Below, in pieces: positions 21,001-24,000 of a stretch of 64,000 nucleotides of DNA. This DNA comes from Escherichia coli. Its GTDB lineage: Bacteria > Pseudomonadota > Gammaproteobacteria > Enterobacterales > Enterobacteriaceae. Position numbers: made by a program. The number at the start of each line of letters is the position of its first letter. The first letter of the stretch is position 1. The stretch lies in the NCBI RefSeq assembly GCF_050920415.1, contig NZ_CP169309.1. One strand, given 5' to 3'.

Positions 21001-24000
21001 CTAATGCTTTATTCTATCAAAAATCGCTCATTTTTACTTTTTTTACCATAATGTTACTTAGTAGCATCGGCAATTTACATAACTTACATGTTGCTTTTTA
21101 TATCCTGAAAAAACAGATAGATAGTGTGCGCACTCGAAATGATATTGGTAACATAAATAGCTTTATTCGTGACAAACATCTCAAAAGATTTCCTTTTATT
21201 ATTTTTGAAATTCATTTGATCAAGGTTATCACCTTATGGAGACGTTACGTAGAATGACTATATTTGTTATCGGCACATTAGGGGTATTAAATTTAGTATT
21301 GATGGAAGGTGATTATTGAACAATAACATCGAGTCACGGTAAAAGTGTGAGGTATATAATGGACATTGAGTTTTCGCAGATTCATGAAATGGTCTATATG
21401 CATGATATTGTAAATTCGGACTCGAAAAAGAAACCAAGGATTCCGTTAAAAAAATTCCTTAATGCTGAGAAGGTTCTCACGCAAACAACATCATGGGCAC
21501 TAAATTCAAGATATGTGAATGTTAATTCTGTCAGTAAAGTCAACGTAAAGAGTAAAGTTAAAAACAGTTATATCTCACGATCTGTCAATGATGAGTTTAG
21601 TTTAACAGATGATGAAATCAATTCTTTTAAAGAAACGTTAGTCCTTTCCTCTATTGATTCACTAAGTAAACTGGTTCTTAATAATCCTCTTTCTGTATTG
21701 TTTACATCGACTGTACGAAGGAATAATAATAGAGCTAAGATGAATGTTGAGTTCGACTCATGGATTTGCACCAGATGTTGTTGATACATGATATTTTACA
21801 TTGCAAGGTGATGTCTAAAATGAAAGATGTTGATCAAAACTTTGATGCTTTATACTGGCATATACTACAAGCATATTTAATTTTATTGTTTTATGATTAA
21901 CGAGGTTCCATCTTTTTGTTATCTATTTAAGTTTACCTTGCACAATGCATGATTGCTCTGTTACCAATACTCAAAATAAAAGCATGCTTACCTTGCTTTA
22001 TTATATTATAGCTTACACTTTTTTCTGGAAAGACATAAAAATCAGGAATAAGTTCTGCAAGTCTATCATCATCGACTTGATCCATGATCTCAAATTTATT
22101 AACTTTCTTTGATGTTAAATGGGCTGTGTCATAGTTTTCAATCCATGTGTATTCAATATTTCGCCGTATTGATTTACTTTCTCTGTTACCTTGTTGCCAG
22201 GTTCCGCTCAACGCAACAGTTCCTGTTTTATTTTTTTGGTTATACATAAAGTCGATGGTAAGATTTGCTCGCCCCTTGTCATTAAAAATTACCCAATTTG
22301 CAGTGCATGTTTCATTATATATCATTTTTTCTGCAGTATAAGAGTAAACAATGAAGAGAATAAACCCACTGATGAAAACTAAAATAAATAATAAGTTTTT
22401 TTTATAATCAATCACGATTAACCTCACGGTAAGACAGGGTTAAACAGCCTGCCACTTCATGTTGGTTATAGTTTTTATTGCATGCCATAACAATCATCCT
22501 TGGTGAGGATTTTGCAAGAGGGAAGTATAACCACGGATATTTTTTACAGTTAATCCCCGAATCCAGTATCCGTGTCTTATATTTATCGAACTCTTTCAAC
22601 CCATCAATTGTATCTTCTGTCACATTAAAATGGCAGCCATTAATTTCCGCAACAGTCTTGTAATCCTTGAAGAATGGCTTCGGTTGATTCTTATTCCATA
22701 GCCAATGTGCAGAATATACGCCTATAGCAAATATGCTCAACATAATTAGATAACTTTTTATATGTTTGAGGATTTTGTTATTGAAATTGTTTGCGCTACC
22801 AATGCTCTCTTTGTACTCCGCATTACCTTTTACCGCAGGTGGGGTATTGTGTGTATGTGCGTCTGTTGAAGAGTTTATTGCATGATTTTGTATGTTAATG
22901 TCATTATGAATCTTGAATCCTCTTCTCGGCACGGTTGCAATAAGCGAGTGGGTGGTATCACCAACAGCGCGAAATCCGCGTCTGATAATGGATATGTTCT
23001 GATATAACGTGTTAGTTGGCACACGCATACCTTCTTCTTCCCAGACTCTGGTGAAAAAATCTTGTTGTGCAACCACATCAGGAAAAGCTTCAAGTAGAAG
23101 TGATAAACAACGACTGGCTGGCGTTGTCAGAACGACGTTAAGATCGGCGTTATGTACCGATATTAATTTTCGGTGCTCAGGCCAGAACTCGATATTATCG
23201 TTAATAATCCAGTACATACGTCAATAGACACTAAATCAATCGAAATGGAAATCACATAGTTTGCTAAGTATATTGGTATTTACGGCATAAATATATATTA
23301 ATTTTATATTTATCATAATGATTGAAATGAGGCTTTAATGTCGCAACGTAAAACTTTACGTAAATTAACATGATTAACATTTACGCCACTATTGTTTGTA
23401 AATTCATATTTCGTAATGCTTCTGAATTTTTCGTGTGATGGTTTTAAATACCATGTTGTTTACTCTTGGGGTTACTGCTTATTTATAAAATACGGGCATT
23501 TCAATAGATGCCCGTATAAGCAGAGTATGATTCTGGCAGATTGTTGAGTATCAATGTTGGACCGAATGTGAACGAATAAATAACTCGTTTATTTTACCAC
23601 CCATTCTCTTTTCGATTCGTTGCTTGTACGCGTAGATGCTACGGATATCCATATCCAGAACTTCAGCAATCTGATATGGATTAAAACCAGAAACCATATA
23701 CCCCATTATGGTGAATTCCATCTGAGTTAATGTGTTCCCTCTGGTAAATGATAAATAACGACCAATAAATAGTTGTCTGATCTTTTCATTGGCAACATCA
23801 AGACCATCATCATTATATATGACAGCAGATATTGCAGAGTTGTGTTTTCGCCAGTAGTTAGCTAACGATTGCATATTGCGGTCGCTGACTAAAACAATCC
23901 CCATGTCAGTACTTGCAAGATAGTCAATCCAGTCTTTTTCAAGGAATAGACGTAAAAAACTTACTGAAAAATCGACAAAAATATATCCGCTTAATCTCGC

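What the first reader, a model, noticed from the sequence alone, without database searches (positions are those of the whole stretch)
21933..23217. yqeI-yqeJ resembles a ToxR/ToxS-type membrane regulator pair
YqeI has an N-terminal OmpR-type winged helix, one transmembrane helix and a Cys-containing periplasmic tail. The next gene, overlapping by 20 nt, encodes a small single-pass periplasmic protein, which is the architecture of ToxR/ToxS or CadC-type one-component signalling. Inside a T3SS island this is a candidate environmental input to the regulators ygeH, ygeK and etrA.
Basis: inference. Interest (0 to 1): 0.5.

Follow-up and report, generated by a model that had tools for sequence, protein, structure and literature searches.

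The report
Known ToxR/ToxS-like membrane regulator pair YqeI/YqeJ
The two overlapping E. coli genes yqeI and yqeJ do encode a membrane-anchored DNA-binding regulator and its small periplasmic partner of the ToxR/ToxS (VtrA/VtrC) kind, but this was already published in 2022, so only their signal and target genes remain unknown.

Summary
yqeI (22408..23217, minus strand, 269 aa) encodes an N-terminal OmpR/ToxR-type winged helix, one transmembrane helix and a 95-residue periplasmic domain with four invariant cysteines. yqeJ (minus strand) encodes an N-terminal membrane anchor and a periplasmic 8-stranded barrel. The 20-nt overlap applies only to the longest ORF. The RefSeq GTG start at 22415 has a GAGG Shine-Dalgarno 6 nt upstream and gives an 8-nt overlap.

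My own tests support the ToxR/ToxS reading:
- The best PDB sequence match of YqeI is the V. cholerae ToxR DNA-binding domain.
- All 11 sampled distant YqeJ homologues have a same-strand gene directly upstream. It is a 261-303 aa Trans_reg_C protein in the 8 loci with domain data.

The result is already known. Kinch et al. (PNAS 2022) named YqeI/YqeJ a VtrA/VtrC-like co-component system and reported that the periplasmic domains form a complex. The proposed input to the ETT2 regulators is untested. Distant homologues sit next to adhesin genes, not T3SS genes. Interest is low.

The parts
22408..23217 (-). yqeI CDS, 269 aa: transmembrane transcription regulator, the ToxR/VtrA-like component
   Evidence: ORF; RefSeq name; 111 homologues in Escherichia, Citrobacter, Kosakonia, Enterobacter and Salmonella; 42% identical over the full length to a 285-aa Salmonella protein that I take to be MarT, although it is not named as such in the database.
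22909..23214 (-). [quoted passage not shown]
   Evidence: Pfam Trans_reg_C residues 28-102, E=4e-9. The best PDB sequence hits are V. cholerae ToxR DNA-binding domain entries 8b4b, 8b4c and 7nmb, E=1.7e-7, residues 2-103. About 55 positions are at least 90% conserved among homologues.
22774..22908 (-). YqeI residues 104-148: polar juxtamembrane linker rich in Asn, His and Thr
   Evidence: Sequence; no position in it is at least 90% conserved. That it is a flexible tether is inferred.
22696..22752 (-). YqeI residues 156-174: the single transmembrane helix
   Evidence: It is the only strongly hydrophobic 19-residue window (Wimley-White -12.4 kcal/mol; Kyte-Doolittle 1.46-1.59). Homologues have their best hydrophobic window at the same place, median Kyte-Doolittle 2.21. 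Three Lys residues lie just N-terminal to it.
22411..22695 (-). YqeI residues 175-269: periplasmic alpha/beta domain (two strands, a helix, three strands) with invariant Cys195, 224, 246 and 258
22422..22425 (-). GAGG Shine-Dalgarno for yqeJ, inside the 3' end of yqeI
   Evidence: Read directly from the sequence: GAGG, then TTAATC, then GTG. The spacing is 6 nt.
21933..22415 (-). yqeJ CDS, 160 aa from the GTG at 22415 (RefSeq start; 8-nt overlap with yqeI). The longest ORF starts at 22427 (164 aa; 20-nt overlap).
   Evidence: Homologues carry Pfam PF27292 YqeJ_C. 97 representatives were found with E<=1e-3 among 1.84 billion proteins.
22338..22394 (-). YqeJ residues 8-26: N-terminal membrane anchor
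   Evidence: Kyte-Doolittle 2.54, Wimley-White -16.6 kcal/mol. The AlphaFold2 model has one continuous helix over residues 3-30. Two Lys residues precede it.
21936..22325 (-). YqeJ residues 31-160: periplasmic 8-stranded lipocalin-like barrel, with Cys37 on the first strand and Cys158 on the last

Best explanation
yqeI-yqeJ is a two-gene, translationally coupled operon. It encodes a 'co-component' transmembrane transcription regulator of the ToxR/ToxS-VtrA/VtrC superfamily and is the E. coli counterpart of Salmonella MarT/FidL.

YqeI sits in the inner membrane with its winged-helix DNA-binding domain in the cytoplasm and a small, disulfide-containing alpha/beta domain in the periplasm. YqeJ is anchored by an N-terminal helix and exposes an 8-stranded lipocalin-like barrel, closed by a Cys37-Cys158 disulfide, in the periplasm.

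By analogy with VtrA/VtrC and ToxR/ToxS, the two periplasmic domains form a heterodimer. That heterodimer stabilises YqeI and probably binds a small hydrophobic host-derived ligand such as a bile salt. Ligand-driven association brings YqeI DNA-binding domains together on target promoters while they stay tethered to the membrane.

Shown here: the domain architecture, both folds, the conserved cysteines and the conserved gene pair. Reported by others: the periplasmic domains form a dimeric complex when co-expressed, and a yqeI deletion lowers flagella, adhesion, serum resistance and colonisation in an avian pathogenic strain. Inferred only: the ligand, the oligomerisation step and the direct target promoters.
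For: - wHTH domain.
- Single transmembrane helix in each protein.
- YqeJ fold: closest to ToxS and VtrC by two independent methods, clearly above generic barrels.
- YqeI periplasmic fold: closest to the ToxR periplasmic domain.
- Cysteines: four invariant periplasmic Cys in YqeI and a conserved pair on the first and last strands of YqeJ. Disulfides form only outside the cytoplasm, which supports the topology.
- Gene pair: in 11 of 11 sampled distant YqeJ_C loci a same-strand gene lies directly upstream, with a 4-11 nt overlap or a 5-8 nt gap. It is a 261-303 aa Trans_reg_C protein in the 8 loci with domain data.
- Literature: PMC9214523 lists YqeI/YqeJ as a candidate co-component system with a lipocalin-like YqeJ, a conserved disulfide and a dimeric complex on co-expression. 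PMC10269533 and PMC13042144 list it in the same family. PMC7552227 gives the mutant phenotypes.
Against: - YqeJ shows no sequence-level similarity to ToxS or VtrC. The relationship rests on fold, topology and gene order.
- I could not model or measure the heterodimer. The supplement with the co-expression experiment is not held.
- No ligand or DNA target is known.
- The island is AT-rich (GC 0.31-0.36). The K-12 fragment carrying these genes was used as an example of an H-NS/StpA-silenced hairpin (PMC12460168), so the pair may be silent in most conditions.
- The closest complete genome has a frameshifted yqeI.
Confidence: 0.88

Rival explanations
1. YqeJ is only a stabiliser. Like TcpH for TcpP, or ToxS protecting ToxR, it shields the YqeI periplasmic domain from regulated proteolysis. 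No ligand binds the barrel, and the signal would be the redox state or folding of the YqeI disulfides, or pH.
For: YqeI has four invariant periplasmic cysteines. Published reviews note that partner proteins in this family act either by inhibiting proteolysis or by promoting heterodimer formation (PMC10269533). No ligand is known for YqeJ.
Against: The YqeJ model is a complete, confidently predicted lipocalin-like barrel. Its nearest solved relatives, ToxS and VtrC, were solved with or reported to bind bile salts (PMC13042144). The two mechanisms do not exclude each other.
Confidence: 0.25
2. The pair is a decaying remnant of the ETT2 island. It is silenced by H-NS and has no current regulatory role in most E. 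coli.
For: The island has low GC. The K-12 region was used as an H-NS/StpA hairpin-forming, silenced fragment. yqeI is annotated as frameshifted in the nearest genome. Other ETT2 genes in these strains are broken by IS2 or frameshifts.
Against: Both ORFs are intact in this window. The locus is present in 3766 of 5426 complete genomes at mostly 95-99% identity. Full-length protein clusters hold thousands of members. The functional residues (Cys, wHTH core) are invariant across genera. A yqeI deletion gave complementable phenotypes in an avian pathogenic strain.
Confidence: 0.15
3. YqeI is a CadC-type one-component sensor that works alone, and yqeJ is an unrelated small membrane protein that happens to be adjacent.
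For: The best NCBIfam hit of YqeI is the CadC model, but it is weak (E=1e-4, 21 bits). CadC shares the wHTH-TM-periplasmic layout.
Against: The CadC score is far below its cut-off of 400 bits and covers only the wHTH. The periplasmic part is about 95 aa, not the large two-subdomain CadC sensor. Its fold matches the ToxR periplasmic domain. YqeJ has the ToxS/VtrC fold. The pair is conserved, and in 7 of the 11 sampled loci the two ORFs overlap.
Confidence: 0.03

Closest known systems
[quoted passage not shown]
   Same: The layout is the same in both proteins. A 285-aa Salmonella protein that I take to be MarT (not named as such in the database) is 42% identical to YqeI over the full length, including the four periplasmic Cys. 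FidL and YqeJ sequences are reported to cluster together, and YqeI/YqeJ is described as the orthologue of MarT/FidL and the paralogue of GrvA/FidL (PMC9214523).
   Different: MarT activates the adjacent misL autotransporter gene. GrvA activates LEE-dependent adherence (per PMC9214523). YqeI/YqeJ lies at the edge of ETT2 with no adjacent adhesin gene, and its direct targets are unknown.
Vibrio parahaemolyticus VtrA/VtrC (bile-salt receptor controlling T3SS2)
Vibrio ToxR/ToxS
   Different: No sequence similarity outside the wHTH. The YqeI model lacks the C-terminal helix of the ToxR periplasmic domain (also noted in PMC9214523). YqeJ belongs to a separate Pfam family, PF27292 YqeJ_C. The regulon differs.
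Yersinia PsaE/PsaF (and MyfE/MyfF)
   Same: A co-component pair with overlapping ORFs that controls an adjacent adhesin (fimbrial) operon. Distant YqeJ_C cassettes are likewise next to fimbrial, autotransporter, invasin or two-partner-secretion adhesin genes.
   Different: The periplasmic domains are shorter. I did not compare them directly here.
E. coli CadC
   Same: A membrane-anchored ToxR-like wHTH regulator with a periplasmic sensor that contains a disulfide.
   Different: CadC has a large two-subdomain periplasmic sensor and uses the permease LysP as co-sensor, with no lipocalin-like partner. YqeI fails the CadC model (21 bits against a cut-off of 400).

Membership tests
Co-component transmembrane transcription regulators (ToxR/ToxS-VtrA/VtrC superfamily) | N-terminal cytoplasmic OmpR/PhoB-type winged helix-turn-helix in the regulator | tested here: met
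   Pfam Trans_reg_C E=4e-9. The best PDB sequence hit is the ToxR DNA-binding domain, E=1.7e-7.
Co-component transmembrane transcription regulators (ToxR/ToxS-VtrA/VtrC superfamily) | [quoted passage not shown] | tested here: met
   A single hydrophobic segment at residues 156-174, conserved in position in 90 homologues. This is a hydropathy prediction, not an experimental topology.
Co-component transmembrane transcription regulators (ToxR/ToxS-VtrA/VtrC superfamily) | Small periplasmic alpha/beta domain with the ToxR/VtrA fold, usually with a conserved disulfide near the C terminus | tested here: met
Co-component transmembrane transcription regulators (ToxR/ToxS-VtrA/VtrC superfamily) | Adjacent downstream gene for an N-terminally anchored protein with a periplasmic lipocalin-like 8-stranded barrel | tested here: met
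Co-component transmembrane transcription regulators (ToxR/ToxS-VtrA/VtrC superfamily) | The two genes are kept together as an operon across relatives | tested here: met
   In 11 of 11 sampled distant YqeJ_C loci there is a same-strand gene directly upstream. It is a Trans_reg_C protein in all 8 with domain data. Junctions are 4-11 nt overlaps or 5-8 nt gaps.
Co-component transmembrane transcription regulators (ToxR/ToxS-VtrA/VtrC superfamily) | The periplasmic domains of the two proteins bind each other | not testable with these tools
PMC9214523 states that the YqeI/YqeJ periplasmic domains form dimeric complexes when co-expressed. Its supplement is not held.
Co-component transmembrane transcription regulators (ToxR/ToxS-VtrA/VtrC superfamily) | An environmental ligand (for example a bile salt) bound by the barrel or heterodimer switches transcription | not testable with these tools
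   No ligand or target promoter is known for YqeI/YqeJ. This step is inferred by analogy only.
ToxS / VtrC sequence families | Detectable sequence homology to ToxS or VtrC | tested here: not met
   No Pfam or NCBIfam hit. phmmer against all PDB sequences finds neither ToxS nor VtrC even at E<=10. Identity in the structural alignments is 7-13%. YqeJ belongs to its own Pfam family, PF27292 YqeJ_C.
CadC-type one-component regulators | Match to the CadC model over its full length, including the large periplasmic sensor | tested here: not met
   NCBIfam CadC gives 21.2 bits against a cut-off of 400, covering only wHTH residues 48-134. The periplasmic part is about 95 aa.

The most novel reading that the evidence does not exclude
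The direct regulon of YqeI/YqeJ may not be the ETT2 secretion apparatus. It may instead be surface-adhesin and motility genes, possibly through the adjacent EcpR-like regulator YqeH, with the pair responding to a gut lipophilic cue such as a bile salt. Support comes from distant relatives. In 6 of 8 loci with several kb of flank, the cassette sits beside fimbrial, autotransporter, invasin or two-partner-secretion adhesin genes. A seventh locus has an EcpR_N protein related to YqeH directly downstream (BLASTP E=1e-10). None has T3SS genes within 6 kb. The E. coli pair would then be an adhesin-type regulator cassette that landed at the edge of ETT2, and the yqeH-yqeI-yqeJ trio would be one functional unit.
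Probability: 0.3. Interest if true: 0.4.

Novelty: already known. Interest (0 to 1): 0.15.

Why it matters
ToxR/ToxS-type pairs are how several enteric pathogens convert gut signals such as bile into virulence gene expression. YqeI/YqeJ is the copy carried by about two thirds of E. coli, including K-12. Its classification and heterodimer formation are already in the literature, so this finding adds no new kind of system. Three questions remain open: what the barrel binds, which promoters YqeI occupies, and whether it talks to ETT2, to YqeH, or to the flagellar and fimbrial regulons.

Tried and rejected
- Sequence-level links of YqeJ to ToxS or VtrC. Pfam, NCBIfam and phmmer against the PDB found nothing. 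Only the fold comparison shows the relationship.
- PADLOC defence models for YqeI, YqeJ, YqeH, YqeK and the ygeF-like ORF gave no hits, so a defence-system reading is dropped.
- The promoter and terminator scan of 21300..23700 found 14 promoter-like sites against 11.3 expected and 1 terminator-like site against 1.2 expected. This is uninformative, and no promoter is claimed.
- The idea of a conserved LuxR-type + YqeI + YqeJ trio in locus L010 fails: the L010 GerE protein has no BLASTP similarity to YqeH. In L014, by contrast, the neighbouring EcpR_N protein is related to YqeH (E=1e-10).
- I first took PF27348 on fragment P0240 to be a YqeI C-terminal family. One search shows it is EcpR_N. P0240 therefore apparently combines YqeI-like sequence with a YqeH-type (EcpR_N) domain and says nothing about YqeI.
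- The supplement of PMC9214523 with the co-expression method is not held.
- I did not attempt a heterodimer model.
- I did not run a genome-wide or metagenome locus scan. Eleven look-ups of individual homologues were enough to test pair conservation.

Full report
**What is in the sequence.**
The window is E. coli chromosome. It carries the ETT2 type III secretion island, which has low GC (0.31-0.40 up to about 26 kb, against about 0.50-0.54 beyond). After the island come yqeG, yqeF, kduID, araE and further core genes.

yqeI is 22408..23217 and encodes 269 aa. yqeJ ends at 21933. RefSeq gives both genes these names, and the 2.1-kb stretch is found in 3766 of 5426 complete E. coli genomes, always on the chromosome.

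The longest yqeJ ORF starts at GTG 22427 (164 aa, 20-nt overlap). RefSeq uses the next GTG at 22415 (160 aa). That codon lies 6 nt after a GAGG, whereas the upstream GTG has no Shine-Dalgarno. The likely overlap with the yqeI stop is therefore 8 nt. The first in-frame ATG would delete the membrane anchor, so a GTG start is needed.

**YqeI anatomy.**
- Residues 28-102 match Pfam Trans_reg_C, E=4e-9.
- Among all PDB sequences the best hits are the V. cholerae ToxR DNA-binding domain entries (E=1.7e-7, residues 2-103), ahead of PhoB-type regulators and CadC.
- A polar linker covers residues 104-148.
- The only strongly hydrophobic segment is residues 156-174. Its Wimley-White sum is -12.4 kcal/mol. 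Its Kyte-Doolittle score is 1.46-1.59, just under the classical 1.6 line. In 90 homologues the best hydrophobic window lies at the same place, with a median of 2.21.
- The last 95 residues contain Cys195, 224, 246 and 258, all invariant in 91 sequences from Escherichia, Citrobacter, Kosakonia, Enterobacter, Salmonella and others.

**YqeJ anatomy.**
The local Pfam library and NCBIfam give nothing, and there is no sequence match to any solved structure. Its homologues carry the recent Pfam family PF27292, YqeJ_C.

A full phmmer scan of 1.84 billion representatives found 97 relatives, about 65 of them full-length at 150-165 aa. In a 68-sequence alignment Cys37, Gly65 and Gly71 are invariant, and Arg85, Phe126 and Cys158 are at least 90% conserved.

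The AlphaFold2 model scores pLDDT 93.3 and pTM 0.79. It has one helix (residues 3-30) that contains the hydrophobic core at residues 8-26, followed by eight strands and a short helix. Cys37 lies on the first strand and Cys158 on the last.
- In the Foldseek search against the PDB, five of the top six hits are V. parahaemolyticus ToxS 8u2f, V. cholerae ToxS 8alo_B and VtrC 5kew/5kev; rank 5 is rice fibrillin 5 (9jwr_C). Classical lipocalins follow.

**Pair conservation.**
I looked up the contigs of eleven distant YqeJ_C proteins.
- All eleven have a same-strand gene immediately upstream.
- In the eight loci where domain data exist, that gene encodes a 261-303 aa Trans_reg_C protein.
- Junctions are overlaps of 4, 8 or 11 nt, or gaps of 5-8 nt.

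**Interpretation.**
All testable defining features of the ToxR/ToxS-VtrA/VtrC co-component architecture are met. The exception is sequence-level membership in the ToxS or VtrC families themselves.

Topology has three supports. The wHTH must reach DNA, so it is cytoplasmic. Lysines precede both helices. Conserved cysteine pairs lie in the C-terminal domains, as expected for periplasmic disulfides.

The mechanism I propose is by analogy. A periplasmic heterodimer stabilises YqeI and probably binds a hydrophobic ligand, which drives association of the membrane-tethered DNA-binding domains on target promoters. I could not test the interaction, the ligand or the DNA targets.

**Comparison with the literature.**
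This is not new.
- Kinch, Cong, Jaishankar and Orth (PNAS 2022, PMC9214523) list E. coli K-12 and Sakai YqeI/YqeJ as a candidate co-component system with a 'YqeJ lipocalin'.
- They call the pair the orthologue of Salmonella MarT/FidL and the paralogue of GrvA/FidL.
- Later papers list YqeI with partner YqeJ in the same family.
- A yqeI deletion in an avian pathogenic strain changed 587 transcripts. It lowered flagellar and type 1 fimbrial gene expression, motility, adhesion, serum resistance and colonisation, with complementation.

One small discrepancy is worth recording. Kinch et al. count YqeI/YqeJ among the few pairs without overlapping ORFs. RefSeq and the sequence show an 8-nt overlap if the GTG start is used.

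Nothing supports or refutes it directly. Three points argue for caution.
- The published mutant phenotype concerns flagella and fimbriae.
- In this window the etrA-like gene is interrupted by IS2 near its 5' end.
- Among the eight distant cassettes with several kb of flank, six lie next to adhesin genes: chaperone-usher or ECP-like fimbriae, two autotransporters, an invasin and a two-partner-secretion adhesin. One lies next to an EcpR_N regulator, and none lies next to T3SS genes.

The gene just upstream of yqeI, yqeH, is itself EcpR-like (NCBIfam E=1.3e-20). It is related to the EcpR_N protein beside the L014 cassette (BLASTP E=1e-10). This fits the known MarT-misL and PsaEF-psaABC logic better than T3SS control. 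The sample is small, and in E. coli no adhesin gene is adjacent.

**Rivals.**
- A stabiliser-only role for YqeJ cannot be excluded and is compatible with the main model.
- A decaying-remnant reading has some support. The island is AT-rich, the K-12 fragment was used as an H-NS/StpA-silenced hairpin example, and the nearest genome has a frameshifted yqeI. Against it stand the intact ORFs here, the wide retention, the invariant functional residues and the mutant phenotype.
- A CadC-type single-component reading fails its tests.

**Verdict.**
The ToxR/ToxS interpretation is supported by independent fold searches. The finding is already known. Interest is low. The open questions are the ligand and the regulon.

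Noticed in passing
window 10770..12103: An IS2 copy (TnpA-like ORF 11644..12054, TnpB 10781..11686, minus strand) sits inside the 5' end of the LuxR-type etrA-like regulator gene, about 35-42 nt after its start when compared with the closest complete genome.
   Followed up: partly
L001 (NZ_CP169399.1) 12435..13662 and 15909..16717, against window 19719..20210 and 22408..23217: The closest complete genome (99.9% identical) has its IS2 in the SicA-like chaperone gene ygeG instead, and a frameshifted yqeI. In the window both genes are intact. Near-identical strains carry different lesions in the island.
   Followed up: partly
window 23551..24243 (-), yqeH; locus L014 6614..7216: YqeH, directly upstream of yqeI, is EcpR-like (NCBIfam E=1.3e-20). 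A distant YqeI/YqeJ-like cassette in a metagenome contig has an EcpR_N (PF27348) protein directly downstream, and that protein is related to YqeH (21% identity over 170 aa, E=1e-10). This may be a recurring three-gene unit.
   Followed up: partly
loci L006, L008, L009, L010, L012, L013: Distant YqeJ_C cassettes lie next to adhesin genes: chaperone-usher fimbriae, ECP-like fimbrial genes, autotransporters of 429 and 1458 aa, an invasin/intimin-type protein and a two-partner-secretion haemagglutinin. None has T3SS genes within 6 kb.
   Followed up: partly
window 22408..22427: PMC9214523 lists YqeI/YqeJ among the few co-component pairs whose ORFs do not overlap. With the GTG start used by RefSeq, which has a GAGG 6 nt upstream, they overlap by 8 nt, as do the cassettes in L002, L008 and L012.
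   Followed up: yes
window 35334..35415 and 35531..35618 (+): The tandem sRNA genes OmrA and OmrB lie between galR and aas (Rfam RF00079, 86 and 97 bits), as expected for E. coli.
   Followed up: no
protein P0003 (E. coli E22 'o94', 200 aa): One database protein joins a YqeJ_C domain (85% identical to YqeJ) to a lytic transglycosylase SLT domain. It is probably a deletion fusion within a degraded ETT2 island.
   Followed up: no
window 21347..21784 (+) yqeK and 20437..20928 (-) ygeF-like ORF: The two ORFs downstream of yqeJ (yqeK is convergent with it) have no NCBIfam or PADLOC match and remain uncharacterised.
   Followed up: no
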